64,000 nt of DNA from Prevotella sp. (GCA_017557405.1 JAFYYV010000001.1:142079-206078); one strand, 5' to 3'; counted from the first letter of the stretch, positions 4,204 to 58,771 are shown. The notes: generated by a model from the sequence alone, not told the origin. Translations and numbers: made by a program.

Positions 4204-4497
4204 GTGTAATCGCTACACGCGAACGAACGAACAGTTGAACAGTTTTTGTGTGTGAAACTGCAATAGAAGATTATTATTATATAATATATAATAATAAAAG
4301 TTTCGCGCACGCAAAAAAGAAAACTGTTCAACTGTTCGTTCGCTGTTCGTTCTCATATCCATCTTCTTTGTGGAAAAAAAGAAGCGTTGTCAAAGACCAT
4401 CTTTGACCTTGTCATTTGTGGTCTTTGATCTCCTCATTGCATAGCTTTGACCGTGTCATTGATGGTCTTTGACAACGTCATTTGTGGCCTTTGACAA
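4204..4497 (+). repeat. Composite intergenic element, copy 1: long imperfect hairpin (4220-4342) plus five tandem 22-bp units (4389-4495)
   Basis: Arm CGAACGAACGAACAGTTGAACAGTTT (4220-4245) is complementary to AAACTGTTCAACTGTTCGTTCG (4321-4342). The apex is a 12-bp A/T palindrome with a 3-nt loop (4271-4297). A near-identical copy lies at 18364-18655. Confidence 0.85.
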
Positions 4498-4532: not shown

Positions 4533-4568
4533 AAGAGGATTTGACATTCACTATCAAATCCTTTCTTT
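4533..4568 (+). terminator. Intrinsic terminator-like hairpin downstream of the composite element
   Basis: AGGATTTGA (4536-4544), 9-nt loop, TCAAATCCT (4554-4562), followed by TTCTTT and preceded by an A-run. Confidence 0.55.
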
Positions 4569-15451: not shown

Positions 15452-18328
15452 ATGCGATATTTCACACTTATATGTGCCTTCTGGCTTCTGTCCACTCTTG
15501 TCGTTCAAGCGCAAAATGATGAAGACAGAGGTCTGACCGTCAGCGGAACCGTACAGGATGCTGAATTGAAAGAAGCGATAGCGCAAGCTACTGTGCAACT
15601 GTTCCGTTCGAAGGATAGTACGTTCGTTGGCGGCTCCATAACCGATTTGCGCGGTAATTTCTCAGTCGAAGCACCTGCGAATGGCATCTACCGACTGAAG
15701 ATTTCATCGATAGGATTCCAACCGATAGAACGTGAGGTTACACTACGACGCAACCAAAGTCAGGATTTGGGTAACCTATTGATGTCGCCCGACGCCGTCA
15801 TGCTGAAGGAGACCGTTGTTACGGGACGAGCAGCACAAGTGATTGTAAGAAAAGACACGCTGGTTTATAATCCAGACGCCTTCCGCACGCCTGAGGGGTC
15901 GCCTATCGAAGAACTCATCAAACGAATGCCTGGTGCCGAGGTCGATGAGGATGGTAACATCACCGTCAACGGAAAGGTGGTGCAGAAGATCCTGCTCGAT
16001 GGAAAAGAGTTCATGCTAGGCGACGTAGAGACGGCATTGAAAAACCTACCCGTTTCCATCATTCAGAATGTGAAATTCTACGACCAGCAAAGCGATCAAG
16101 CCCGTATCACCGGCATTGAGGACGGTAACAAGGAAACTGTGCTCGACTTCACGATTAAAAAGGGTATGAACCGCGGTTATATGACCAACCTCGATCTCGC
16201 TGGAGGCACCAAACATCGCTATGCTTCGCGCGGTATGGGTAGCAGCTTTACGGACAAGACGCGCTTCGTGTTGATGGGCAATCTGAACAATAAGGAAGAG
16301 AATGCAGGATGGTGGAACCGACGCGGATTGAACGCACGGAAGATGTTGGGTACTAACCTGAACTATGATGATGGCAAAAAACTGAAGATTGATGCCTCTG
16401 TGCGTTGGAATCATCGTGACGGCGACAACGAAAACGAGAACGCCAGTGAGAACTTCTATAGCCAAGATTATCGCACCTTCTCGAATAGTCGATCGAAGAG
16501 TCTCTCGCGTAGTAACAACTGGAACGGAAACATGCGCGTAGAATGGAAGCCCGATACGCTGACGAACATCTTGCTGCGCGCCAACGGCAGCCTTGGCACC
16601 AACGATGGTATTTCAACATCTGCTAGCGCCACGTTCTCGGAGGATCCGTATCTCTATACCGAAGACCCGTTAGGATCGTTAACCTCATTGTCTCCCTATC
16701 TCGTCAACCACAACCAAAGCGCCAGCCTCTCCTACGGCGAGAACAAGAACGCTTGGGCCATGTTGCAGTTGTATCGTCGCTTGAACCCAAGAGGCCGTAA
16801 CATCACTTTGCGTGTAGAAGGTAGCATGGGCGACAGCAAGAACCGCAACACCTCTAACAACGAGGTTCATTTGTTCCGTGTGAAAAACATTGCAGGCGAG
16901 GATTCCACCTATTTTACTGCCCGCTACAACACTACACCATCGGACAATCAGGGTTACGTGCTCAGCGCCAATTATAGCGAACCGCTTTGGAATGGTGCAC
17001 ATTTGCAAGCCAACTACGAGTTGCGATACAATCAGAACAAGAGTGACCGCCAGACTTACGACTTCAGTCTTCTGCCTCAGAATCCTTTTGCAGGCATTGC
17101 TCCCGAATACCGCGAATGGACCCCTTGGATTGACGACCTCTCACCTCTCGATGGCTATCTCGACAGGAATCTCAGTCGCTATTCCGAGTATAAGAACTAC
17201 ACGCACAATATCCGACTCACCTTGCGACATTATCAGGAGAAATACGACTACAACATTGGTTTCCTCGTACAGCCCCAGCACTCGAACTTCATCCAGGACT
17301 ATCGAGGCATCTATGTCGACACCATACGCAATGTCACCAACCTGACTCCCACGTTCGACTTCCATTATAAGTTCACCGACCAGCACGACATCTGGCTGCA
17401 CTATCGTGGCGACACTCGCCAGCCTGATATCACCCAGTTGCTCGACATCACCGACGATTCGAACCCGCTTTACATCACGCAAGGTAATCCGGGCTTGAAA
17501 CCGCAGTTTACCAACTCGCTGAACGTCTATTACAAGAACTACATCTCGAAATACAAGCGTTCTATCGTACTCTACGGAAACTATCGCCACATCCGCAACA
17601 GCATCTCGAATCTCGTACGCTACAACGCCGAAACGGGTGGAAGCTTGTCGCGACCGGAGAACATCAATGGTAACTGGAATGCCGACGGTGGTTTCACGTT
17701 TAACACCGCCCTCGATTCTGCAGCCCATTGGAACATCGGTACTGACACTCGTTTGCGCTACAACAACTACGTGAGTTATGTGGCTCAACGTGCTGCTGAT
17801 GCACAGAAGAACACCACGCGCACCACCAACCTGAACCAGCGGCTGAACCTCAGTTTCCGCAACGATTGGTTGGAAGTGACCATCGATGGTAACGTGAACT
17901 ACCAACACTCTCGCAACGAGTTGCAACCCACTGCCGACCTCGACACTTGGCATTTCAGCTATGGCGGACAAATCATGCTTCGTCTGCCTTACAACTTCGA
18001 GATTTCAACGAATTTGCACGAAAACAGCCGACGAGGATATAACGACCCGTCGTCGAACACGAACGAGCTTATTTGGAATGGGCAAGTATCGAAGACTTTC
18101 CTCAAAAGCAAGACGCTCGTCGTAGCACTCAACTTCTACGACCTCCTCAACCAACAGAGCAACTATGAGCGATGGGTTAATGCTACTGGTCGCAGCGATA
18201 CTCGCTATAACAGCATCAATAGCTACGCCATGCTCCACGTACGCTACCGCCTGAACATGTTCGGTGGAAAGGTCGACACTGAAGGCCGCTACGAAAAGAA
18301 ATGGGGTAACAACGATAGACGTCGTTGA
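15452..18328 (+). CDS. Outer-membrane beta-barrel family protein with N-terminal CarboxypepD_reg-like domain (TonB-dependent-receptor-like)
   Basis: Signal peptide ..VVQAQ. Carboxypeptidase-regulatory-like domain (GTVQDAELKEAIAQATVQLF), plug-like segment, then a long Asn/Tyr-rich beta-strand region. Confidence 0.8.
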   Translation: MRYFTLICAFWLLSTLVVQAQNDEDRGLTVSGTVQDAELKEAIAQATVQLFRSKDSTFVGGSITDLRGNFSVEAPANGIYRLKISSIGFQPIEREVTLRRNQSQDLGNLLMSPDAVMLKETVVTGRAAQVIVRKDTLVYNPDAFRTPEGSPIEELIKRMPGAEVDEDGNITVNGKVVQKILLDGKEFMLGDVETALKNLPVSIIQNVKFYDQQSDQARITGIEDGNKETVLDFTIKKGMNRGYMTNLDLAGGTKHRYASRGMGSSFTDKTRFVLMGNLNNKEENAGWWNRRGLNARKMLGTNLNYDDGKKLKIDASVRWNHRDGDNENENASENFYSQDYRTFSNSRSKSLSRSNNWNGNMRVEWKPDTLTNILLRANGSLGTNDGISTSASATFSEDPYLYTEDPLGSLTSLSPYLVNHNQSASLSYGENKNAWAMLQLYRRLNPRGRNITLRVEGSMGDSKNRNTSNNEVHLFRVKNIAGEDSTYFTARYNTTPSDNQGYVLSANYSEPLWNGAHLQANYELRYNQNKSDRQTYDFSLLPQNPFAGIAPEYREWTPWIDDLSPLDGYLDRNLSRYSEYKNYTHNIRLTLRHYQEKYDYNIGFLVQPQHSNFIQDYRGIYVDTIRNVTNLTPTFDFHYKFTDQHDIWLHYRGDTRQPDITQLLDITDDSNPLYITQGNPGLKPQFTNSLNVYYKNYISKYKRSIVLYGNYRHIRNSISNLVRYNAETGGSLSRPENINGNWNADGGFTFNTALDSAAHWNIGTDTRLRYNNYVSYVAQRAADAQKNTTRTTNLNQRLNLSFRNDWLEVTIDGNVNYQHSRNELQPTADLDTWHFSYGGQIMLRLPYNFEISTNLHENSRRGYNDPSSNTNELIWNGQVSKTFLKSKTLVVALNFYDLLNQQSNYERWVNATGRSDTRYNSINSYAMLHVRYRLNMFGGKVDTEGRYEKKWGNNDRRR

Positions 18329-18363: not shown

Positions 18364-18655
18364 GTGTAATATTTACACGCGAACGAACAGTTGAACAGTT
18401 TGTGTGTGTGAAACTGCAATGGAAGGTTATTATTATATTAAATATAATAATAAAAGTCTTGCGCACGTGAAAAAGAAAACTGTTCAACTGTTCGTTTGTT
18501 CGCTGTTCGTTCACATACCCCTATTCTTTTTGAAACAAGTGGCGTTGTCATTGATAATCTTTGACCTTGTCATTTGTGGCTTTTGACCTCGTCATTGCAT
18601 AGCTTTGACCGTGTCATTGATGGCCTTTGACAACGCCATTTGTGGTCTTTGACAA
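18364..18655 (+). repeat. Composite intergenic element, copy 2: long hairpin (18380-18496) plus five tandem 22-bp units (18547-18653)
   Basis: Collinear with 4204-4497, with scattered substitutions and small indels. Same arm, apex and unit order. The apex arms are conserved while the 3-nt loop differs (TAA vs AAT). Confidence 0.85.
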
Positions 18656-18706
18656 GGCTAAACTGTTTTACTTTGGCTACGTCCAAGATACCCTCGCTCA
18701 ACAATA

Positions 18707-18732
18707 AAAACAAAAAATCGGTTTTTTGTTTT
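18707..18732 (+). terminator. Weak A/T-rich hairpin, terminator-like
   Basis: AAAACAAAAAA, loop TCGG, TTTTTTGTTTT; lies about 50 nt after the repeat array. Confidence 0.35.
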
Positions 18733-18752
18733 GTATTGTTCTCGCTTATTCG

Positions 18753-18760
18753 TATCTTTG
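18753..18760 (+). promoter_or_regulatory. -7 promoter box TAtcTTTG for mnmG
   Basis: TAnnTTTG match 28 nt upstream of the ATG at 18789. Confidence 0.55.
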
Positions 18761-18788
18761 CGTCGTTAAAGAAGATTCTTTCTGAACA

Positions 18789-20696
18789 ATGACATTCAAT
18801 TACGATGTGATTATAATCGGCGGCGGCCATGCTGGATGCGAGGCTGCAGCGGCATCTGCACGCATGGGAGCGAAGACATGTCTCATCACAATGGACATGA
18901 ACAAAATTGCCCAAATGTCGTGCAATCCTGCTGTTGGAGGCATCGCCAAAGGACAGATGGTGCGCGAAATCGATGCATTGGGCGGCGAAATGGGTCGCGT
19001 GACCGATGCTACTGCTATACAATTCCGTATGCTCAACCGAGGGAAAGGTCCTGCTGTGTGGAGCCCAAGAGCACAATGCGACCGCGGAAAATTCATCTGG
19101 AAATGGCGCGAGACCCTCGATGGAATCGATAATTTGTTTATTTGGCAAGATCAAGCCGATGAACTATTGGTTGAACAAGGCGAGGTGGTCGGAGTGCGCA
19201 CCATTTGGGGAGCTGAGTTTCACGCCAAAAGTGTGGTTGTGACGGCTGGCACTTTCCTCAACGGACTCCTTCATGTAGGTCGTAAAATGGTGCCAGGAGG
19301 ACGTTGTGCAGAACCCGCGGTGCCCCATTTCACCGAGAGTATCACACGACATGGTGTCCGCTCGGCTCGAATGAAAACAGGTACGCCTGTACGTATCGAC
19401 CGCAGAAGCGTTCATTTCGAGGACATGGAGATACAACCTGGCGAAGCCGACTTCCATCAATTCAGCTACTATGCACCTCATCGACAGCTGCAACAATTGC
19501 CTTGCTGGACTTGCAATACCAATGCCGAGGTTCACGAAACGCTACGTTCGGGATTGGCCGATTCGCCCTTGTATAATGGACAAATACAGAGCATCGGACC
19601 TCGTTATTGCCCTTCTATCGAGACAAAACTGGTCACTTTCCCCGACCGAGAGCAACATCCGCTATTCTTGGAACCAGAGGGCGAAAACACGAACGAGATG
19701 TACCTGAATGGTTTCTCGTCGAGTATGCCGATGGATGTGCAACTAATGGCGTTGAGAAAGATTCCTGCACTTCGCGATGTACAAATCTATCGTCCTGGCT
19801 ATGCTATTGAATACGATTTCTTCGATCCCACCCAACTCGACCATTCATTGCAATCGAAAGTGGTGCGCGGCTTGTTCATGGCTGGTCAGGTAAACGGTAC
19901 AACAGGATATGAAGAGGCTGCTGGACAAGGTTTGGTGGCAGGTGTGAATGCCGCTCTCTATAGTCAATCCATCTCTTCTGCAATAAATGACGATTCCATC
20001 GCCACGCCATCTTCGTTCACTTTGGCTCGCGATGAAGCCTATATTGGCGTATTGATTGACGACCTAGTGACAAAAGGTGTCGATGAACCCTACAGAATGT
20101 TTACGTCTCGAGCCGAATATCGCATACTGCTACGACAGGATGATGCTGATGCCCGACTTACCGAACGAGCCTATGAACTCGGATTGGTAAGTCGCGAACG
20201 ATATGATTGGTGGATGGAGAAGAAGGAAATGGTCGATAGAATCATTCATTTCTGCGAAAACACTCCCGTTAAACCAAGCGCCATCAATGGTGCTTTGGAG
20301 GCTCTTGGTACCACTCCCCTGCGGTTTGGTTGCAAGGTCGCTGACTTGATTGCCCGTCCACAACTGACCATGCAGAACTTAGCTGACATGCTCCCAAAGC
20401 TGAAAGAATTACTGAATTCACCGAAAAACCGCAAGGAAGAGATAGCAGAAGCAGCCGAAATAAAGATAAAATACAAAGGCTATATCGAACGCGAAAAAAT
20501 GGTTGCAGAGAAAATGCACCGGTTGGAGAACATCAAAATAAAAGGACGTTTCAACTATTCGGAGTTGCATGAAATCTCAACCGAAGGAAGACAGAAACTG
20601 GAAAGAATCCAACCAGAAACCTTAGCTCAAGCAAGTCGGATTCCAGGTGTTTCTCCTTCCGACATCAACGTGCTGCTCGTCTTGCTTGGTCGCTGA
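18789..20696 (+). CDS. mnmG: tRNA uridine 5-carboxymethylaminomethyl modification enzyme MnmG (GidA)
   Basis: FAD motif DVIIIGGGHAGCEAA; CNPAVGGIAKGQMVREIDALGG; full-length collinear GidA architecture. Confidence 0.97.
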   Translation: MTFNYDVIIIGGGHAGCEAAAASARMGAKTCLITMDMNKIAQMSCNPAVGGIAKGQMVREIDALGGEMGRVTDATAIQFRMLNRGKGPAVWSPRAQCDRGKFIWKWRETLDGIDNLFIWQDQADELLVEQGEVVGVRTIWGAEFHAKSVVVTAGTFLNGLLHVGRKMVPGGRCAEPAVPHFTESITRHGVRSARMKTGTPVRIDRRSVHFEDMEIQPGEADFHQFSYYAPHRQLQQLPCWTCNTNAEVHETLRSGLADSPLYNGQIQSIGPRYCPSIETKLVTFPDREQHPLFLEPEGENTNEMYLNGFSSSMPMDVQLMALRKIPALRDVQIYRPGYAIEYDFFDPTQLDHSLQSKVVRGLFMAGQVNGTTGYEEAAGQGLVAGVNAALYSQSISSAINDDSIATPSSFTLARDEAYIGVLIDDLVTKGVDEPYRMFTSRAEYRILLRQDDADARLTERAYELGLVSRERYDWWMEKKEMVDRIIHFCENTPVKPSAINGALEALGTTPLRFGCKVADLIARPQLTMQNLADMLPKLKELLNSPKNRKEEIAEAAEIKIKYKGYIEREKMVAEKMHRLENIKIKGRFNYSELHEISTEGRQKLERIQPETLAQASRIPGVSPSDINVLLVLLGR

Positions 20697-23255: not shown

Positions 23256-23310
23256 GCTCTTGCAATTGTAGAAGCCCCTTCTGAAATCATCAAACGATAT
23301 ATTTGGTAAA

Positions 23311-23373
23311 GTAAAATAGTCTATTTTAGTCAGTAAAATAGTCTATTTTGCTCGGTAAAATAATCTATTTTAC
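23311..23373 (+). repeat. Three tandem 22-bp units of a second palindromic repeat (GTAAAATAGTCTATTTTAC type)
   Basis: Units start at 23311, 23333 and 23355. Each has 7-bp arms GTAAAAT/ATTTTAC around a 5-bp core. Confidence 0.8.
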
Positions 23374-23485
23374 TTTTTCAAAGGATATATCTGACAACAT
23401 CAAAGAGATGCTATAGAAAAGAAAGAAGGATGTTCTGATATCAGTAAAAATAGCATTTTTATTTTGTTAATCCATTTTTTTACTC

Positions 23486-29694: not shown

Positions 29695-29702
29695 TCAGTT
29701 TT

Positions 29703-29831
29703 GTCAAAGGCCATCAATGACGTTGTCAAAGACCACAAATGAGGCGGTCAAAGCTATGCTTTAAGCGTGTCAAAGCTATGCTATGAGAAGGTCAAAAGCC
29801 ACAAATGACAGGCTTAAAGACCATCAATGAC
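29703..29831 (-). repeat. Array of six 22-bp mosaic repeat units (reverse orientation)
   Basis: GTCAAAGGCCATCAATGAC, GTCAAAGACCACAAATGAG, GTCAAAGCTATGCTTTAAG, GTCAAAGCTATGCTATGAG, GTCAAAAGCCACAAATGAC, CTTAAAGACCATCAATGAC at 22-bp spacing, starting 9 nt after the polA stop. Confidence 0.85.
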
Positions 29832-29913
29832 AAATGTTATGGATTCATAGGGCGGCAAAAGCGGCATTCTGCACAAAAGAATTAGAAAATTTGGCAAATC
29901 GCCTGCTTCTTTG

Positions 29914-32964: not shown

Positions 32965-32989
32965 AAAGTAAAATAGACTATTTTACTTT
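32965..32989. terminator. Perfect 12-bp-arm palindrome AAAGTAAAATAG-A-CTATTTTACTTT between convergent VanW-like and mutS genes (single unit of the second repeat family)
   Basis: Read directly from the sequence; same core as the 23311-23373 units. Confidence 0.6.
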
Positions 32990-43004: not shown

Positions 43005-43238
43005 GAATGACAAATGACAAAATGACAAATGACAATAAGGTACCTTACAACATTCCATATATGTAGTAGTGTATATATATTGTATAAATATGTATATATA
43101 GTAATAATATAATTATATAATATTATTATAATATATATAATATATGTTAATATATACTACCCCCCAGCATGCTCCCTAGGCGTTTTCGGCGTTTGCAACC
43201 TATGAACCTTGCTTATTGTCATTTGTCATTTGTCATTC
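43005..43238. repeat. Inverted repeats of ATGACAA heptad runs (43005-43040 / 43207-43238) flanking an ~165-bp segment dominated by A/T palindromes
   Basis: GAATGACAAATGACAAAATGACAAATGACAATAAGG versus CCTTGCTTATTGTCATTTGTCATTTGTCATTC. The core contains TAATAATAT...ATATTATTA. Confidence 0.8.
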
Positions 43239-43251
43239 TGTCATCGGAAGT

Positions 43252-43314
43252 GTCATAGCTATGCAATGACAAGGTCAAAGCTATGCAATGAGCCGCTTAA
43301 AGGCCACAAATGGC
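43252..43314 (-). repeat. Three 22-bp mosaic repeat units (reverse orientation)
   Basis: GTCATAGCTATGCAATGAC, GTCAAAGCTATGCAATGAG, CTTAAAGGCCACAAATGGC at 22-bp spacing. Confidence 0.75.
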
Positions 43315-43713
43315 GTGATGAAAGAGCATCTCTGACAAATCATGTGAAAAAACATCAGAAAAAGTGTGTTCGCGAAGGGTAAAAAAACAATATTTTGGAA
43401 GCAAAAAATCGCAATTCCCTGAACTTTTTTTCTCACGAACGCAAAAATCATGATGAAAATGCCAAACTTGAAAAATTGGAGTTGTGAACGAATGTTAATC
43501 ATTAAAGTTAACAAATGTAAATAATCAAAGACAGAAGAGTGAATAAAAATTGAGATAAAACCGAAACAAAATGGTTGCAATTCGTGCAGAGTGGGATGCA
43601 ATTGGAAGAAAATGCGGTATTTTTCGCTGAATTTCGCTTGATTTGAACTAAAAACTCACACGCGAGAATGCAAATTTATTTGTATTCTCTTCGTTTATCA
43701 CATTTTTTTGCAC

Positions 43714-48204: not shown

Positions 48205-50214
48205 ATGAAAAGAGTTTTCATATTATTGGCAATCGTATGGTTCTCATGCTTTGCAGCTATCACTACAAAGGCTGCGAGCATCGGAACTTGGAATGCTTAT
48301 ATGGCCTATCACGATATTACAGAGATTGAGCAGACAGGACATCTGGTGTATGTCTTGGCTTCGAAAAGTCTCTATGTCTATAACACCAACGACCAAAGTA
48401 TTCAAACTTTTGACAAAGTGAACCTGTTGAACGATTGCAACATCGCTCATATTGCTTGGTGTAAAGATGCCAAAATACTCATTATCGTATATGAAAATCA
48501 AAACATCGATTTGCTCGATAATAACAACGACATCATCAATATCTCCGACTATTATTCGAAATCGTTGACTGGCAACAAAACTGTCAACAGCATCTATATC
48601 GATGGTATTTATGCTTATCTGGCTGCTGGATTCGGAATTGTGAAGATAAACATGTCAAAAGCCGAAATCAGCGATTCCTACAATCTAGGATTCAATGTTA
48701 ACTATGTCTATATAGAAGGCGATTATATTTACGCATCTTCCAAACAAAGAGGCACCTATCGAGCCAATATGAGTACCAACTTGCTTGATAACACCAATTG
48801 GACGTGGGCGAGCGCATTTGTTGACAAAGCAAAACCGCTGGATCAACAACTATTGGCTACATTGAAAACCTTGAAACCGGGAGGTCCGCAAACGAACGAT
48901 TTCTCGTTCATGAAGTTCTATAACGGACAACTCTATACTTCCAACGGATTGACTGACAAGACGGGAAACATCCAAGTGCTCAAAGATGATGAATGGTCAA
49001 TGTTCCAAAACCAGAATATCACTCAAACCACTGGTTATACTTTCCCTGGAATCGTTTGCTTCGACATCGATCCTTTGGATGAAACCCACGTATTCGGATG
49101 CTCTAGAAATGGTGTCTATGAGTTCCGAAATGGAGAGTTTGTCAAGCATTACAATCACAAGAACTCACCCATTGAGATTTTCGATGGCATACACGATGAA
49201 TATGAGCTCGTAGAGGCCTTGAAATTCGACAATGAAGGAAATCTGTGGTGTTTGAACAGCCAAGCGCCCAACCAATGTATTTTGAAGCTTGACAGAGGCG
49301 GAAAATGGGAGAGTTTCCATCATTCTGAATTGATGAAACTGAACGATGATGTAGATAACAAGAGTTTGGCTACATTGGAACGAATGATATTGGATAGTAG
49401 GAATCTGCTTTGGTTTGTCAACGACCACTGGAATCTTCCATCGTTGTATTGCTACAATCCCAATACAGATGAAATAACCGCTTACACCAAAATCACCAAC
49501 CAAGACGCCACTTCTTATTCGTTCGATTACATTCATTGCGTGAAGGAAGACAAATCAGGTCGTATCTGGATTGGAACGAATGTAGGACCTTTCTATCTAG
49601 AACCATCCGAATTCAATAGTTCTGATCCTGTTTTCACACAGGTGAAAGTACCACGAAACGATGGAACCAACTATGCTGACTATCTGCTGAGTGGTGTTGA
49701 CATCTCGGCTATTGCTGTTGATGCAGGTGGCCGTAAATGGTTTGGTACATACGGAAATGGCGTTTATCTCATCAGCGAAGACAATCTCACCCAACTGCAG
49801 CACTTCACAACAAGTAATAGCAAACTCATCTCTGACAATATTGAAGACATCGCCATCAACGACAAAACGGGGGAAGTTTACTTTGCAACCAGCAACGGAC
49901 TTTGCTCATATATGAGCGATGCAACTACTCCCAACGAGGAGATGAACAAAGACAACGTATATGCTTATCCCAATCCAGTAACGCCTGAGTATACAGGTCT
50001 TATTACGATTGTTGGACTTTCATATAATGCCGATATCAAAATCGTAACCAGTAGCGGTCAACTCATTGCTGAAGGAAGAAGCAATGGTGGTTCGTTTACT
50101 TGGAATGGACGCGACAAAGAAGGTAAACGAGTGGCATCGGGTGTATATATGGTCATGAGTTCCACTCAAGAAGGAAAGAAAGGAACAGTATGCAAAATAG
50201 CCGTTGTCAACTGA
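48205..50214 (+). CDS. Beta-propeller protein with T9SS C-terminal domain, PorZ-like
   Basis: Signal peptide. Two-component-regulator-propeller-like repeats (RIWIGTNVGPFY, RKWFGTYGNGVYL). CTD YAYPNPVTPEYTGLITIVGL...GVYMV. I prefer the ATG at 48205 over the tracked TTG at 48196. Confidence 0.5.
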   Translation: MKRVFILLAIVWFSCFAAITTKAASIGTWNAYMAYHDITEIEQTGHLVYVLASKSLYVYNTNDQSIQTFDKVNLLNDCNIAHIAWCKDAKILIIVYENQNIDLLDNNNDIINISDYYSKSLTGNKTVNSIYIDGIYAYLAAGFGIVKINMSKAEISDSYNLGFNVNYVYIEGDYIYASSKQRGTYRANMSTNLLDNTNWTWASAFVDKAKPLDQQLLATLKTLKPGGPQTNDFSFMKFYNGQLYTSNGLTDKTGNIQVLKDDEWSMFQNQNITQTTGYTFPGIVCFDIDPLDETHVFGCSRNGVYEFRNGEFVKHYNHKNSPIEIFDGIHDEYELVEALKFDNEGNLWCLNSQAPNQCILKLDRGGKWESFHHSELMKLNDDVDNKSLATLERMILDSRNLLWFVNDHWNLPSLYCYNPNTDEITAYTKITNQDATSYSFDYIHCVKEDKSGRIWIGTNVGPFYLEPSEFNSSDPVFTQVKVPRNDGTNYADYLLSGVDISAIAVDAGGRKWFGTYGNGVYLISEDNLTQLQHFTTSNSKLISDNIEDIAINDKTGEVYFATSNGLCSYMSDATTPNEEMNKDNVYAYPNPVTPEYTGLITIVGLSYNADIKIVTSSGQLIAEGRSNGGSFTWNGRDKEGKRVASGVYMVMSSTQEGKKGTVCKIAVVN

Positions 50215-51632
50215 TTTATGGCATTATCATTGTCATACTGCTCACTCCTTTGTTTCTCGTAGGTGCTATCTCTATCCTTCCTACCTTCGATGATTGGACT
50301 TCATTGGTCTCTCCATCATTCGAACCTTTCTTTTCAAAAGAACGTTTTCTTTTCTTTGGTTATCATTGGCGACCATTTGATTCCATATTCGGTTATATTG
50401 TAGGACTCAATCCGCAAACGCTTTTCCCACTTCTCAATCACATTTGTGTGGTCTTAGGTCATGTTTGTAGCACTATACTATTGTTCATTCTTGCACGGAA
50501 GCTTCAACTAAGTAAACTTGCCTGCAACCTCGCAACACTCTTTTTCTTTCTTTCTCCGGGAATGTTGGCAACTGTACTGGCAGTTGACGGACTCAACCAA
50601 ACTTACGCCAACGTATGGGCATTAATCGCCACCTTATCCTATCTTTCAATGTCGGGTTGGAAGAAATATGTGGTTTGGCTCTTCTTCATTTTCATCGCCA
50701 CCCTTTGCAAGGAAAACGCATTGATGTGGGCATTAATCGCACCGATTATCGCATACGTTTTTGATTTTACAAACCGCACAACATTTCGCAAAGACTTGCT
50801 GATAGGAATAGGGTTAATCATCGCTTATTTCCTCGCAATTCTCTTGTTTCCCAGCAACATCGATATTCATCCTGAATACGTACCAAGCATTGGAAAGACA
50901 TTCAAGGATTTCTTCAAATTCCTGCTTTCCACTTGGTTTGCCGTTGATTTTGTCAGTTTGCTCCATCAACCCAGCAGAAATCTCATCATCGCAATAGCAA
51001 CCCTCTTGTTGTCTTTGCCGCTTGTCTATTTCATCTTCATCAAGAACTTCAAATCGTTCAGCGACAAACGTCTGATAGGTCTTGTTATCTGCTTACTGAT
51101 AGCTGTTGCCCCACATATTTTCACGGTTTTCAGCATGATGCACACCTATGCAGGATTGGCAATTGCAGCGTTGATAATCGGAGTCGTTATCACCAAACTC
51201 AATCACTCAAAAACTCAAAAACTAATATACCTTCCTTTCATCGCTTATTTCATTTCAGCTGTCTTTGTTGATGTTCATCTTTGGCATGAATCCTACAAAT
51301 CGGGATTGGTTGGTAAGCAGATGGCGCAACAAGCCATTGAGAAAACCTTGCAAGCAACGGCTGCTCCCAATTCAGTTGAAATCATCATTATAGAGGATGA
51401 TTATCCACGTCTTTCATCGTTTTGTGTAATTCCATCCGATGCATTTGGATGGGGTAGGGCGGTGCAACATGAAACCAACTATCAATGGCCTACTCAACTG
51501 AATGATACGACTATCGAACGCAATAATCAATCGAAAGAAACAGCATTGAAATTGGCGCAACAAACCATCAACGAGAAGAAAGCCGATTGTGTTTGGATTG
51601 TTGACAAAAAGGAAATTGAGGTTGTCAAATAA
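50190..51632 (+). CDS. Polytopic membrane protein, GT-C-like (ArnT/GtrC-type) glycosyltransferase candidate
   Basis: About 10 or more hydrophobic helices followed by a ~110-aa soluble tail. No diagnostic motif recognised. Overlaps the upstream gene by 25 nt. Confidence 0.4.
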   Translation: MQNSRCQLIYGIIIVILLTPLFLVGAISILPTFDDWTSLVSPSFEPFFSKERFLFFGYHWRPFDSIFGYIVGLNPQTLFPLLNHICVVLGHVCSTILLFILARKLQLSKLACNLATLFFFLSPGMLATVLAVDGLNQTYANVWALIATLSYLSMSGWKKYVVWLFFIFIATLCKENALMWALIAPIIAYVFDFTNRTTFRKDLLIGIGLIIAYFLAILLFPSNIDIHPEYVPSIGKTFKDFFKFLLSTWFAVDFVSLLHQPSRNLIIAIATLLLSLPLVYFIFIKNFKSFSDKRLIGLVICLLIAVAPHIFTVFSMMHTYAGLAIAALIIGVVITKLNHSKTQKLIYLPFIAYFISAVFVDVHLWHESYKSGLVGKQMAQQAIEKTLQATAAPNSVEIIIIEDDYPRLSSFCVIPSDAFGWGRAVQHETNYQWPTQLNDTTIERNNQSKETALKLAQQTINEKKADCVWIVDKKEIEVVK

Positions 51633-51662
51633 GATTTTTTTATAAAGCATTACTTTAGTTTT

Positions 51663-51747
51663 GTCAAAGACCACAAATGACCGTGTTAAAACATAGCTTT
51701 GACCTCGTCATTCCATAGCTTTGACGAGGTCAAAGACCATCAATGAC
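51663..51747. repeat. Four 22-bp mosaic repeat units in mixed orientation forming a 13-bp-stem hairpin
   Basis: Reverse, forward, forward, reverse units. CTTTGACCTCGTC (51697-51709) pairs with GACGAGGTCAAAG (51723-51735). Lies between convergent genes. Confidence 0.8.
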
Positions 51748-51757
51748 AAAACCTATA

Positions 51758-52687
51758 TTAAATACCTTCTTGCTCGCTTATCAAATAGACAGGACGATTC
51801 TTCGTTTCATGGAAAACACGTCCCAGATATTCACCTATAATACCTAACGACAACAACTGAACACCACCCAAGAAAAGAATGAGAATCACCAACGTTGGAT
51901 AACCTTGAACGGGTTCGCCATAAAGAATGGTCTTTACCAAAACGTAGCACATATAAATGAATGCCACCAACGAAACTACAATTCCAACAACCGTTGAAAT
52001 TCGTAGTGGAGCGGTAGTATAAGAGGTGATTCCCTCGATTGCCAGGTTGAAAAGCCGATGATAACTGAACGATGATTTTCCTTTCTCACGATCAGCTTGC
52101 TGGAAACTGATTTTCTTCTTTTTGAATCCAATCCAACAATAAAGTCCTTTCGTATAACGCTGAGTTTCACGTAGTTTCTTCAAGGAATCAATGCATTTTC
52201 TGTCCAACAATCGGAAATCTCCTACATTGGGAAGCACGTCCACTTTTGCCATTCGTTGCAACAACCGATAATAAAGCATCGAAAGTTTCCTACGCAACCA
52301 ACTTTCCTTTCCTCTGTTCAACCGTTCAGCATATACATCATCATATCCTGACTCCCATTCAGCAATCATTTCAGCCATCAAATGGGGTGGATGTTGAAGG
52401 TCAGCATCCATGATGATTACAGCATCGCCAGTTATATGATCGAAGCCGGCTAACATAGCATTCTCTTTGCCGAAATTACGGGAAAGACTGATGAAACAAA
52501 CCCTCTCATCTCGTTCACGCAATTGTTTGATGCGCGACAATGTATCATCAAAGCTTCCATCATCAACGAAAACAATCTCCCATTGATAACCATTGATTTT
52601 GGCTATGCTTTCCACAAGCGCATCATACAACTTTTCTACATTTTCCTGCTCATTATGGCAAGGAACGAGAATAGAGATTTTCTTCAT
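51758..52687 (-). CDS. Family 2 glycosyltransferase, polyprenyl-phosphate sugar synthase type (GtrB/ArnC-like)
   Basis: ISILVPCHNE, FVDDGSFD, DADLQHPP motifs, plus two C-terminal TM helices. Confidence 0.85.
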   Translation of the reverse strand: MKKISILVPCHNEQENVEKLYDALVESIAKINGYQWEIVFVDDGSFDDTLSRIKQLRERDERVCFISLSRNFGKENAMLAGFDHITGDAVIIMDADLQHPPHLMAEMIAEWESGYDDVYAERLNRGKESWLRRKLSMLYYRLLQRMAKVDVLPNVGDFRLLDRKCIDSLKKLRETQRYTKGLYCWIGFKKKKISFQQADREKGKSSFSYHRLFNLAIEGITSYTTAPLRISTVVGIVVSLVAFIYMCYVLVKTILYGEPVQGYPTLVILILFLGGVQLLSLGIIGEYLGRVFHETKNRPVYLISEQEGI

Positions 52688-57621: not shown

Positions 57622-58166
57622 TGAATCATCGCAAACTTCGTACGATCGAAATGAACCGGCTCAGCATTGAGGAATTTCATGATGCTGAAAAACTTCCACT
57701 CATCGTTGTACTCGACGATGTACGCTCTTTGTATAATGTGGGTAGTGTATTTCGTACGTGCGATGCTTTTCGAGTGAAAGCCATTTATCTTTGCGGCATT
57801 ACGGCCACTCCACCACATGTTGAGATTCATAAGACAGCGTTGGGTGCAGAAGATTCGGTAGAATGGCGTTATTTTGAAACCGCTGATGCAGCAGTAGCCG
57901 ACCTCCACCAGCAAGGTTGCTTTGTTTATTCCGTTGAGCAAGTGGAGGGTAGTACGAAATTACAGGATTTGAAGTTAGATAATAACCAACATTCAACTTG
58001 GGCAGTTGTACTAGGAAACGAAGTGAAAGGAGTGCATCAATCGGTTGTTGATGCTTCTGATGGATGTATTGAGATACCTCAGTTTGGAACCAAACATTCT
58101 ATGAATGTATCAGTAACAGCAGGTATTGTAATTTGGGAGTTTGTCCAACATTTGCAATACAAATAA
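57621..58166 (+). CDS. TrmH/SpoU family RNA 2'-O-methyltransferase
   Basis: SPOUT motifs LDDVRSLYNVGSVFRT, VLGNEVKGV, IPQFGTKHSMNVSV. Confidence 0.88.
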   Translation: MNHRKLRTIEMNRLSIEEFHDAEKLPLIVVLDDVRSLYNVGSVFRTCDAFRVKAIYLCGITATPPHVEIHKTALGAEDSVEWRYFETADAAVADLHQQGCFVYSVEQVEGSTKLQDLKLDNNQHSTWAVVLGNEVKGVHQSVVDASDGCIEIPQFGTKHSMNVSVTAGIVIWEFVQHLQYK

Positions 58167-58176
58167 AAGAGGTTTT

Positions 58177-58300
58177 GTCATTGATGGTCTTTAAGCCTCT
58201 CAAAGCAAGCTTTGACCGCCTCATTCCATAGCTTTGAGCGTCTCATTTGTGGTCTTTGACGTTGTCAAAGCTAAGCAATGACAACGCCATTTGTGGTCTT
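58177..58300 (+). repeat. Array of six 22-bp mosaic repeat units (four forward, one reverse, one forward)
   Basis: Fills the whole gap between the stop codons of convergent genes (58166 and 58301). Confidence 0.8.
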
Positions 58301-58771
58301 TTATTTGGTACCCGCTATTTCCTGGATGTTTTTAAGTGTGATGTTGCCTTTGAGGTTGATGATGCTGATTTCGTCATCTTCTTCGGCTAGCAGTGCGAAT
58401 TCGGCTTTGCCATTTTTCAGTTTCTTGTGGTAGACAGTCATGTGTTCACCATCTTCGCTCATATGCATGACGATTTCGTATTTATTCTTATAGAAGAAAT
58501 CCTGAGCTTGTTTCTTGATGCTGGGAATCATTGAGGGGCGCTCGCAATGAAGCACTCGCATCTGGTCGAGTTTCGATGCTATTTGTCCTATTTCGCGATC
58601 ACCGGCTTTCACGTTTGGAATCATCTGCAGCATGGTTTTCGAGATGAAGACAGTGGTGATACCCTCGGCATCGTTATATTTGTCGAACAGAGCATCCTGA
58701 GCCATTGTCCTGGCTGGCAAGATGAACATGAGCACCAGAGTGAGTAGTGCGGCAAATGTCTTCTGTTTCAT
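58301..58771 (-). CDS. DUF4252-like secreted protein (paralog 3)
   Basis: Signal peptide. Shares the FDKY...V.ISK.M..M.....LD.MR.L....K..YE....DGE.....KK...I.E..L......D...I.L.G.I....I pattern with the two upstream paralogs. Confidence 0.65.
   Translation of the reverse strand: MKQKTFAALLTLVLMFILPARTMAQDALFDKYNDAEGITTVFISKTMLQMIPNVKAGDREIGQIASKLDQMRVLHCERPSMIPSIKKQAQDFFYKNKYEIVMHMSEDGEHMTVYHKKLKNGKAEFALLAEEDDEISIINLKGNITLKNIQEIAGTK

What the first reader, a model, noticed from the sequence alone, without database searches (positions are those of the whole stretch)
18364..18655. Copy 2 of the composite element: structure-preserving differences relative to copy 1
This copy sits after the 958-aa OM beta-barrel gene (stop 18328) and is collinear with 4204-4497. 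The differences are informative. The left arm has one fewer GAAC repeat, while the right arm carries an extra TGTTCG-type repeat, so pairing can still register. The apical 12-bp A/T arms are identical but the 3-nt loop differs (TAA here, AAT in copy 1). The inner stem again needs G-U wobbles on the + strand (GTGTGTGAAACT against AGTCTTGCGCAC). The five 22-bp units occur in the same type order as copy 1: CATTGAT-type, CATTTGTGG-type, CATTGCATAG-type, CATTGATGG-type, CATTTGTGG-type. A weak A/T hairpin (18707-18732) follows, mirroring the terminator after copy 1. Conserved stems with a drifting loop is the signature expected of a selected secondary structure rather than a decaying duplicate.
Basis: seen in the sequence. 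Interest (0 to 1): 0.65.

Follow-up and report, generated by a model that had tools for sequence, protein, structure and literature searches.

The report
Modular palindromic intergenic repeat in rumen Prevotella
The flagged 290 bases are one copy of a non-coding, dispersed repeat in a rumen or gut Prevotella genome, made of a mini hairpin, a long DNA palindrome and five 22-bp units; its symmetry is real, but the evidence favours a DNA-level repeat over a selected RNA.

Summary
Window 18364-18655 is collinear with 4204-4497 at about 90% identity, with sharp ends. It has three modules: a mini hairpin (GTGTA-N5-TACAC), a ~133-bp palindrome, and five 22-bp units.

The palindrome (module A) belongs to a family found in about 30 loci of many rumen Prevotellaceae MAGs. 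The 22-bp units (module B) also occur without A at four more intergenic sites in this window.

Among four alleles, paired columns vary far less than unpaired ones (9% vs 35%). So "conserved stems, drifting loops" is true.

The RNA reading is not supported:
- There are no compensatory changes in 91 predicted pairs.
- The "G-U inner stem" decays in sister strains and is unpaired across the family.
- G.T and A.C mismatches arise equally often.
- Orientation and context relative to genes are not fixed.
- There is no Rfam match and no RNA data.

The A/T core is a perfect DNA palindrome, usually with a 0-1 nt centre. It differs between copies but is always self-complementary.

Best reading: a non-autonomous REP/BIME-, BOX- or BrickBuilt-like modular repeat. 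It is probably carried passively in the 3' UTR of the outer-membrane gene. It is a new family of a known kind and of moderate interest.

The parts
18364..18378 (+). Mini hairpin GTGTAA-TAT-TTACAC. It is the first module of the composite and begins 36 nt after the stop codon of the OMP gene.
   Evidence: The GTGTA/TACAC stem is invariant in WIN1, WIN2, L124, L133, L001 and L057. The loop differs in each (ATATT, ATCGC, ACAAT, GTGGT, GTGTT, GCGTT).
18380..18401 (+). Left outer arm of palindrome A: CGAACGAACAGTTGAACAGTTT, built of tandem CGAA and GAACAGTT units.
   Evidence: The same arm occurs in about 30 loci of rumen Prevotellaceae MAGs, each with a partner arm 58-130 nt downstream.
18402..18426 (+). 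Left inner segment (GTGTGTGTGAAACTGCAATGGAAGG).
   Evidence: It pairs with G.U wobbles in the window copies, decays in L124 and L133, and is unpaired at family level.
18427..18453 (.). Pure A/T perfect palindrome: 13-bp arms (TTATTATTATATT / AATATAATAATAA) around one central base at 18440.
   Evidence: Every family copy has a perfect A/T palindrome of 2 x 6-24 bp, usually with a 0-1 nt centre. Over the first 13 positions, within-copy pairing is 76-100% against 40-51% between copies.
18454..18476 (+). Right inner segment (AAGTCTTGCGCACGTGAAAAAGA), including an unpaired A-rich bulge.
18477..18512 (+). Right outer arm AAACTGTTCAACTGTTCGTTTGTTCGCTGTTCGTTC. It is longer than the left arm.
   Evidence: No target-site duplication lies outside the arms.
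18513..18546 (+). Linker between palindrome A and the 22-bp array. It is the most variable part and carries a 10-column deletion in L124.
   Evidence: It is homologous to the linker in copy 1 and in L003 of another species.
18547..18655 (+). Module B: five head-to-tail 22-bp units, each (G/C)TCATTK-N4-5-YCTTTGAC plus a 3-nt spacer. Each unit is a small imperfect palindrome, and the array as a whole folds into a long imperfect hairpin.
18700..18740 (.). A/T hairpin with A-tract and T-tract (AACAATAAAAACAAAAAA-TCGGT-TTTTTGTTTTGTATTGTT). It is the probable original terminator of the OMP gene and is followed by a TAtcTTTG promoter-like box (18753-18760) before mnmG.
   Evidence: The stretch is nearly identical in sister strains. 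The terminator and promoter roles are inferred from the general Bacteroidetes consensus, from my own knowledge.
4204..4497 (+). Copy 1 of the same composite. Mini hairpin 4204-4218, palindrome A 4220-4352, linker, B array 4389-4497. It starts 7 nt after the stop of a TonB-dependent receptor gene and is followed by terminator-like hairpin 4536-4562.
29697..29835 (-). B array alone: six units in opposite orientation, starting 3 nt after the polA stop and lying before ychF.
43251..43340 (-). B array of four units next to a different long palindrome (43005-43244; AATGACA-repeat arms, TA-rich centre). It lies in a divergent intergenic region before leuS.
51654..51752 (.). B array of mixed orientation that fills the gap between convergent genes (50190-51632 on +, glycosyltransferase 51758-52687 on -). 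It contains a 14-bp perfect inverted repeat.
58164..58301 (.). B array of mixed orientation that fills the entire gap between convergent SpoU methylase (stop 58166) and the DUF4252 gene (stop 58301).

Best explanation
The finding is one copy of a ~290-bp non-coding, non-autonomous, modular dispersed repeat of a rumen or gut Prevotellaceae genome.

It has three modules plus a linker:
- a 15-nt mini hairpin;
- a ~133-bp foldback palindrome ('A'). Its outer arms are tandem CGAA/GAACAGTT units, its inner segments are degenerate, and its A/T core is a perfect palindrome with no spacer;
- a short linker, followed by five 22-bp REP-like units ('B').

Shown: A is a multi-species repeat family. B is a separate, much more abundant, lineage-restricted intergenic repeat that also occurs without A. 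A-linker-B also occurs as a unit in another species. No transposase or other partner gene is linked to it.

Inferred:
- The composite spread or was duplicated as DNA, by trans-mobilisation or recombination. No target duplication is visible.
- Its symmetry is kept at the DNA level. Candidate processes are hairpin- or cruciform-templated correction near the palindrome tip, slippage of the tandem arm units, patchy conversion from other units, and possibly recognition of the arms by a dimeric protein.
- In this locus it lies between the stop codon of the outer-membrane gene and that gene's own A/T terminator hairpin. It is therefore probably co-transcribed as a 3' UTR.
- If so, it would fold into a ~130-nt hairpin plus the B hairpins. 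Like REP/BIME elements, it could impede 3'-5' exonucleases or help termination as a side effect.
- It is not an independent sRNA gene.
For: - Sharp-edged duplicate: the two copies are 89-92% identical with abrupt ends.
- A family: a scan of one genome per species with one 17-nt arm returned 114 loci. In 33 of them, nearly all rumen Prevotella/Prevotellaceae or related MAGs, the partner arm lies 58-337 nt downstream.
- No linked gene: no protein family recurs beside these copies. The window holds only housekeeping genes, with no transposase or recombinase.
- B family: about 30 units in 6 arrays within 64 kb, all intergenic. A pattern scan found 32 matches against 7.9 expected. Contig depth over B in gut metagenomes is about 55 times the local baseline.
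- Lineage restriction: no A or B units were found in about 50 kb fetched around orthologous genes from relatives at 84-92% protein identity.
- Composite in another species: L003 carries A, a homologous linker and a B array.
- DNA-type symmetry: the A/T core is perfect, has a 0-1 nt centre in most copies, and differs between copies.
- Central-base flip: the central base is A in the window and T in L124, and L133 has a spacer-less form.
- Patch conversion: unit 1 in this copy differs from the other three alleles by 5 clustered changes, which turn it into another unit type.
- No RNA-specific signal.
- Motif and paired positions are conserved relative to loops.
- Position in the locus: the element sits between the stop codon and an A/T hairpin that is conserved in sister strains.
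Against: - No empty site was recovered. The element is present in all three strain-level alleles, and more distant relatives have a different downstream gene, so mobility is inferred and not shown.
- No target-site duplication and no matching autonomous element were found.
- The + strand folds 5-7 kcal/mol better than the - strand in both window copies, through G.U pairs. Both copies follow outer-membrane barrel genes in the same orientation. Both facts would fit an RNA role in this lineage.
- Strong conservation of the outer arms across species could mean a host function (a protein-binding site) and not a selfish repeat. Part of that conservation is built in, because the copies were found with an exact 17-mer from the arm.
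- Gene calls around family copies were crude (longest-ORF heuristic).
Confidence: 0.6

Rival explanations
1. A cis-acting RNA structure selected at the RNA level. The composite would be a 3' UTR module of outer-membrane receptor mRNAs (a stabiliser, terminator or processing site), or the precursor of a 3'-UTR-derived sRNA. Its stems would be kept by selection on the + strand transcript.
For: - Both window copies sit just after OM barrel genes, in the same orientation.
- The + strand is more stable than the - strand in WIN1, WIN2 and L124 through G.U pairs.
- One left T to G change together with a right C to T change turns a T.C mismatch into G.U between the copies (read).
- Paired columns are 4-fold less variable than unpaired ones.
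- B arrays fill two convergent-gene gaps where no other terminator is visible.
Against: - 0 of 91 pairs show a compensatory change, and the covariation term is positive.
- The inner stem breaks in L124 (3 mismatches). L133 has two uncompensated A.C mismatches in the outer arms, which would be wobbles only on the - strand.
- At family level the inner segments are unpaired.
- About 10 of 21 family copies with both flanks known lie in divergent promoter regions, and strand stability has no consistent sign.
- L003 has the composite in the opposite order, beyond a terminator.
- B arrays occur in both orientations relative to transcription.
- The core palindrome has no loop.
- There is no Rfam match above threshold, and no conserved promoter box upstream. 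Copy 1 starts 7 nt after a stop codon.
Confidence: 0.15
2. A functional DNA-level site of the host or of a resident mobile element. Arrays of direct repeats at a 22-bp period (two helical turns), next to inverted k-mer-repeat arms that flank an easily melted A/T palindrome, would bind an oligomeric protein. The architecture resembles iteron-type origins, partition sites or transposon ends. It could act in chromosome organisation, replication or recombination, or as the recognition site of a trans-acting transposase.
For: - The period of 21-22 bp recurs next to palindrome A with unrelated unit sequences: 7 of 30 copies in other genomes within 150 nt, about 6% expected, P ~ 0.002.
- A second palindrome in the window has the same plan with different arms (AATGACA repeats) and also abuts a B array.
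- L030 nests a third arm type (GCCACTTT repeats).
- The spacer-less perfect A/T core and the cross-species conservation of the arms fit DNA recognition.
- Independence from context and orientation.
Against: - No initiator, partition, recombinase or transposase gene lies near any copy.
- There are many copies per genome, and B occurs alone.
- The repeat families may simply accumulate in the same permissive intergenic gaps.
- Several of the 22-bp arrays are B-like and may share descent, which would explain the common period.
- No binding data exist.
Confidence: 0.15
3. A decaying segmental duplicate or chance similarity with no maintenance of any kind.
For: - Only two close copies lie in the window.
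- The linker and the inner segments drift freely.
Against: - The family is spread over many species and loci.
- Variation is strongly non-uniform.
- The perfect cores are copy-specific.
- Fold z-scores are -8.8 and -6.3.
Confidence: 0.03
4. An invertible (phase-variable) DNA switch. The 22-36-bp inverted arms would be recombinase sites that flip the ~75-bp centre.
For: - The inverted repeats contain GTTCG motifs. From memory these are loosely like Bacteroides invertase sites; this was not tested.
- One 'opposite strands' joint appeared in the metagenome contigs.
Against: - All four alleles have the centre in the same orientation.
- No TAnnTTTG promoter box lies inside the element (read).
- The 75-bp spacer is very short for inversion.
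- No recombinase gene lies in the 64-kb window.
- The joint is explained by a palindromic paralogue aligning in reverse (records 4, 5, 14, 15).
Confidence: 0.03

Closest known systems
REP / BIME elements of Enterobacteria and Pseudomonas
   Same: - Module B consists of short imperfect palindromic units that are strictly extragenic and present in many copies.
- They cluster in arrays, often right after stop codons or filling convergent-gene gaps, and are sometimes in mixed orientation.
- The expected effects are the same: 3'-end hairpins, mRNA protection, recombination substrates.
   Different: - The unit is 19 nt plus a 3-nt spacer at a strict 22-bp period, and most arrays are head-to-tail and not alternating.
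- There is no GTAG or CGTC tag (PMC3733652).
- No RAYT gene could be looked for outside the window.
- There is no sequence relation.
BrickBuilt MITE of Porphyromonas gingivalis (PMC4596501)
   Same: - It is also from the Bacteroidales and is strictly intergenic.
- It is modular, with flanking modules plus an internal tandem array of ~23-nt units without spacers.
- It has tens of copies, is lineage-restricted, and is often found next to TonB receptor and leuS-type housekeeping genes.
   Different: - BrickBuilt has IS5-type 12-bp terminal inverted repeats (GAGACCTTTGCA) and long leader and tail modules. Neither is present here.
- BrickBuilt has no long foldback palindrome with an A/T core.
- Its unit is 23 nt and unrelated in sequence.
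- Promoter activity was shown for BrickBuilt. Nothing of the kind is shown here.
BOX elements of Streptococcus pneumoniae (from my own knowledge)
   Same: A modular intergenic repeat: end modules that can pair, and a tandemly repeated middle module of variable copy number. It has no coding capacity, and its mobilisation is unknown.
   Different: - The module order and sizes differ (boxA 59, boxB 45, boxC 50 nt).
- There is no perfect A/T palindrome.
- The phylum is different and there is no sequence relation.
Correia (NEMIS) and ERIC elements (from my own knowledge)
   Same: Palindromic repeats of 100-150 bp with ~26-bp inverted ends. They are co-transcribed with neighbouring genes and fold into long hairpins.
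   Different: - Correia elements have a TA target duplication and an IHF site. No target duplication is found here.
- The arms here are tandem k-mers.
- The core here is a copy-specific perfect A/T palindrome.
Iteron-type plasmid origins such as R6K gamma and RK2 oriV (from my own knowledge)
   Same: Direct repeats at a 22-bp period next to an A/T-rich, easily melted segment and inverted repeats.
   Different: - There are many chromosomal copies.
- There is no adjacent initiator gene.
- The units are themselves small palindromes.
- This is a resemblance of layout only.

Membership tests
REP/BIME | Short (20-40 nt) imperfect palindromic unit | tested here: met
   The B unit is (G/C)TCATTK-N4-5-YCTTTGAC: 19 nt with GTCA/TGAC ends plus one outer G-C pair.
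REP/BIME | High copy number, strictly extragenic | tested here: met
   About 30 units in 6 arrays in 64 kb, all between ORFs. Metagenome contig depth over B is about 55 times the baseline. A whole-genome count was not possible.
REP/BIME | Clusters of units in alternating orientation | tested here: inconclusive
   Four arrays are head-to-tail. Two arrays (51654-51752 and 58164-58301) are of mixed orientation.
REP/BIME | Conserved GTAG or CGTC tetranucleotide at one end of the unit (PMC3733652) | tested here: not met
   Units begin with GTCA or CTCA, and no GTAG or CGTC tag is seen.
REP/BIME | Cognate RAYT (Y1 transposase) gene flanked by the units | not testable with these tools
   None in the window. 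The rest of the genome could not be read.
MITE | Terminal inverted repeats, small size, no ORF | tested here: met
   Arms of 22-36 nt, element 130-290 bp, no coding capacity.
MITE | Target-site duplication flanking the ends | tested here: not met
   Of 34 copies, 21 have no direct repeat outside the arms, 8 have 1 nt, and none has more than 3 nt.
MITE | Autonomous element with the same ends, or linked transposase | tested here: inconclusive
   No recurrent neighbouring protein in 33 loci. No match in phage or plasmid collections. Whole genomes were not searched.
MITE | Presence/absence polymorphism with a clean empty site | tested here: inconclusive
   Present in all three strain alleles. Absent beside orthologues at 84-92% identity, but the downstream gene differs there.
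Structured RNA (Rfam-type cis element or sRNA) | Match to a curated RNA family | tested here: not met
   0 hits at gathering score in the window. Only sub-threshold hits to generic long-hairpin miRNA precursor models.
Structured RNA (Rfam-type cis element or sRNA) | Compensatory base-pair changes supporting the stems | tested here: not met
   0 of 91 pairs among 4 alleles. 0 of 14 in the 27-copy family alignment. Covariation is seen only in the A/T core, which has no loop.
Structured RNA (Rfam-type cis element or sRNA) | Fixed orientation relative to transcription, and strand-specific stability | tested here: not met
   Mixed gene contexts, and 5 sense against 3 antisense loci. Opposite order in L003. 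B arrays occur on both strands.
Structured RNA (Rfam-type cis element or sRNA) | A transcript | not testable with these tools
   No RNA run holds the region.
BrickBuilt (P. gingivalis) | IS5-like 12-bp TIR GAGACCTTTGCA plus a 23-nt unit | tested here: not met
   Neither motif is present in 18364-18655 (compared with PMC4596501 Table 2).
Iteron-type replication origin | Adjacent initiator (Rep) gene; one site per replicon | tested here: not met
   The neighbours are housekeeping genes. The window holds six arrays.
Invertible promoter (inverton) | Both orientations present; promoter inside; nearby recombinase | tested here: not met
   Same orientation in four alleles. No TAnnTTTG box inside. No recombinase gene in the window.

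The most novel reading that the evidence does not exclude
The recurring layout may be a functional DNA module or a new class of bacterial foldback mobile element recognised by an unlinked protein, with the perfect core regenerated at each mobilisation or replication event. The layout is a tandem array at a 22-bp period, followed by inverted arms made of 7-8-nt tandem repeats, around a copy-specific, spacer-less perfect A/T palindrome. It is seen with at least three unrelated arm sequences and several unrelated 22-bp units. On this reading it would not be a passive REP-like repeat.
Probability: 0.1. Interest if true: 0.7.

Novelty: new member of a known kind. Interest (0 to 1): 0.35.

Why it matters
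Rumen Prevotellaceae are among the most abundant gut bacteria and are known almost only from MAGs. A dense family of modular intergenic repeats has four consequences:
- It breaks assemblies. Contigs end in it.
- It marks lineages. It is present in this species group and absent from relatives at 84-92% protein identity.
- It supplies ~290-bp direct repeats that could drive rearrangements. Here two copies bracket a 14-kb polysaccharide-utilisation-type gene block where gene order differs from relatives.
- It adds large hairpins to 3' UTRs.

The finding also shows how a DNA palindrome can mimic an RNA with "conserved stems and drifting loops". If the layout of 22-bp arrays plus a perfect A/T palindrome proved to be a protein-recognised site, it would point to an undescribed DNA transaction in Bacteroidota.

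Tried and rejected
- Rfam at gathering score on the whole window gave nothing, and at E <= 10 on the locus gave only noise.
- Two metagenome-collection scans failed. An inner-segment 22-mer gave 0 loci. A B-unit 19-mer gave 14 loci that were essentially single chance-like matches, apart from L148 with 3 units.
- A viral-contig scan with the arm gave 9 single-arm matches and no evidence of an element there. Partner arms in those loci were not checked.
- Phage and plasmid BLAST gave no match.
- Searches for RNA runs found none.
- Laying metagenome contigs gave copy-depth and indel information but no empty site. The one 'opposite strands' joint is a palindromic paralogue.
- The search for a partner gene by clustering all ORFs of 33 family loci found none.
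- The search for target-site duplications found none.
- An apparent 8-bp direct repeat (GTCTACAT) around the palindrome in L003 turned out to be part of the element's own conserved flank and linker.
- The search for an orthologous empty site used all 12 look-ups. Relatives lack the element but also lack the same downstream gene.
- An oriC-like reading suggested by the adjacent mnmG/gidA was dropped. There are two identical-type copies 14 kb apart, many family copies, and no GC-skew switch at the site.
- A literature search found no description of these sequences. Bulk MITE catalogues of Bacteroidota exist (PMC11602168) and may contain them.

Full report
**What is there.** The ORF 15452-18328 encodes a 958-aa outer-membrane barrel protein with CarboxypepD_reg and OMP_b-brl_3 domains. 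The next gene is mnmG/gidA at 18789. The stretch 18364-18655 aligns with 4204-4497, which follows a TonB-dependent receptor gene. Homology begins abruptly at GTGTAA and ends at CTTTGACAA. The repeat finder gives 92% identity over the palindrome part and 89% over the array part. The unit has four pieces. The first is a mini hairpin at 18364-18378. The second is a long palindrome 'A' at 18380-18512, with outer arms CGAACGAACAGTTGAACAGTTT / AAACTGTTCAACTGTTCG..., ~24-nt inner segments, and an A/T-only core. The third is a 34-nt linker. The fourth is five 22-bp units 'B' at 18547-18655. An A/T hairpin at 18700-18740 and a TAtcTTTG box precede mnmG. Unit 1 is of a different type in the two copies. 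The apex is better read as 13-bp arms around one central base, so the 'loop difference' is a compensated swap of the innermost pair.

**It is made of two repeat families.** B units occur in four further intergenic arrays of the window, without any A: 29697-29835, 43251-43340, 51654-51752 and 58164-58301. A pattern scan gives 32 matches against 7.9 expected, and every match with two or fewer mismatches lies inside an array. The arrays lie after polA, before leuS, and fill two convergent-gene gaps completely. They occur in either orientation. Contig depth over B in gut metagenomes that carry this strain is about 55 times the local baseline, against 2-6 times over A.

**Family A in other genomes.** One A arm (17 nt) was scanned against one genome per species and returned 114 loci. 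In 33 of these, nearly all rumen Prevotella/Prevotellaceae or related MAGs, the partner arm lies 58-337 nt downstream. The neighbouring genes are unrelated from locus to locus. The whole window encodes housekeeping functions only. In one other species (L003, RUG11493) A, a homologous linker and a B array occur together. The composite is therefore a unit and not a chance adjacency.

**Test of the 'selected RNA structure' reading.** Orthologous copies were fetched from sister strains. L129-131 are identical to the window. L124/L132 and L133/L134 are two further alleles, with the flanking protein 97-98% identical. Across the four alleles, 17 of 182 paired columns vary against 26 of 75 unpaired columns outside the linker (p = 4e-6). 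The mini-hairpin stem is invariant while its loop is different in every copy. The descriptive claim therefore holds. Several results argue against an RNA-level cause:

- RNAalifold finds 0 of 91 pairs with a two-sided compensatory change, and a positive covariation term.
- In the 12-bp 'G-U stem' the variant events are 2 G-C to G.T, 2 to A.C or C.A, and 2 transversion breaks.
- L124 has 3 mismatches in that stem.
- L133 carries two uncompensated A.C mismatches in the outer arms. These would be wobbles only on the opposite strand.
- Across 29 independent family copies aligned on the palindrome centre, positions 19-36 pair 17-48% within a copy and 22-37% between copies. The inner segments are therefore not a conserved stem.
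- The 27-copy alignment keeps only 14 outer-arm pairs, without covariation.
- The + strand is 5-7 kcal/mol more stable in the two window copies and equal in L133. Over independent co-directional loci the more stable strand is the sense strand in 5 and the antisense strand in 3.
- By a crude gene call, about 10 of 21 family copies with both flanks known lie between divergent gene starts.
- In L003 the composite lies in the reverse order, beyond a terminator hairpin.
- No Rfam family matches, and no RNA run holds the region.

**What the symmetry looks like instead.** Every family copy has a perfect A/T palindrome of 2 x 6-24 bp at its geometric centre, mostly with a 0-1 nt spacer. Its sequence differs from copy to copy. 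Within-copy complementarity is 76-100% over the first 13 positions against 40-51% between copies, and A-T and T-A are about equally frequent at each position. An RNA hairpin needs a loop. A spacer-less perfect palindrome is a DNA-type symmetry. Between sister strains the centre changes by a central-base flip (A in the window, T in L124) or by a one-base insertion that gives a spacer-less form (L133). Such changes fit intrastrand template switching in quasi-palindromes; that interpretation rests on my own knowledge. The arms are tandem 4- and 8-nt units whose number varies. Unit 1 of this copy differs from the other three alleles by 5 clustered changes that turn it into another unit type, which indicates patch conversion. 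No target-site duplication flanks the arms.

**Layout seen elsewhere.** Arrays with a 21-22-bp period lie within 150 nt of 7 of 30 A copies in other genomes. Their units are partly B-like and partly unrelated. About 6% would be expected, giving P ~ 0.002. The window has a second long palindrome at 43005-43244, with AATGACA-repeat arms and a TA-rich centre, that also abuts a B array. L030 nests a third arm type. This recurrence may reflect co-accumulation in permissive gaps or a mechanistic link. It is the basis of the 'novel case'.

**Distribution.** No A or B units were found in about 50 kb fetched around orthologues at 84-92% protein identity. There the receptor or OMP gene is followed within 5-87 nt, or after 425 nt of unrelated sequence, by a different gene. 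The repeats are therefore lineage-restricted. Both window copies sit where gene order differs from relatives. No clean empty site was obtained, so mobility is inferred and not shown.

**Conclusion.** The most likely reading (confidence about 0.6) is a new family of non-autonomous, modular, palindromic intergenic repeats. In kind it is closest to REP/BIME, BOX and the Bacteroidales BrickBuilt MITE (PMC4596501), and it is unrelated to them in sequence. At this locus it lies between the stop codon and the gene's own A/T hairpin and is probably co-transcribed. There it may act REP-like on the mRNA 3' end as a by-product. An RNA-selected element (0.15) and a protein-recognised DNA site (0.15) remain open. 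The first needs transcript data and the second needs binding data.

Noticed in passing
window 43005-43244: A second kind of long palindrome. Its arms are four tandem AATGACA units and their complement, separated by ~170 nt of TA-rich sequence with nested palindromes. A B array (43251-43340) follows directly. It lies in the divergent region before leuS. The arm unit resembles the B half-site AATGAC.
   Followed up: partly
window 23302-23382 and 32967-32987: The palindromic 19-mer GTAAAATAGTCTATTTTAC occurs three times at a 22-bp period just downstream of uvrC, and once more before mutS. PMC8040213 reports Prevotella-only overlapping (palindromic) candidate RNAs near uvrC (HMP2_6893/HMP2_905), which may be the same thing.
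   Followed up: partly
window 18718-18768: The T-tract of the A/T hairpin plus the promoter-like stretch before mnmG has 100-200 times the local contig depth in four gut metagenomes. It shows loose ends on both sides and 'goes back' joints separated by 20-38 nt. It looks like another widely repeated ~40-60-nt module. Only one copy is in the window.
   Followed up: partly
window 4204-4497 and 18364-18655: The two composite copies are direct repeats 14,158 bp apart. They bracket a hybrid two-component regulator, GH3, epimerase, Fe-ADH and the OMP gene. Gene order at both ends differs from relatives at 84-92% identity. The copies could be substrates for deletion or duplication by homologous recombination.
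   Followed up: partly
L045 2840-2990, L072 7366-7449 and 7650-7710, L001/L057/L101 flanks: A further recurrent motif, (A)GTCAACC-TTTTC/TATTC-AGGAAAAGACA and arrays of GAAAAGGTTGAC, lies beside palindrome A in several other Prevotellaceae genomes. It may be another module of the same repeat system.
   Followed up: no
window 18547-18565: Unit 1 of this copy differs from copy 1 and from both sister-strain alleles by five clustered changes (AAAGACC to TTGATAA). This indicates patch conversion from another unit and not point mutation.
   Followed up: yes
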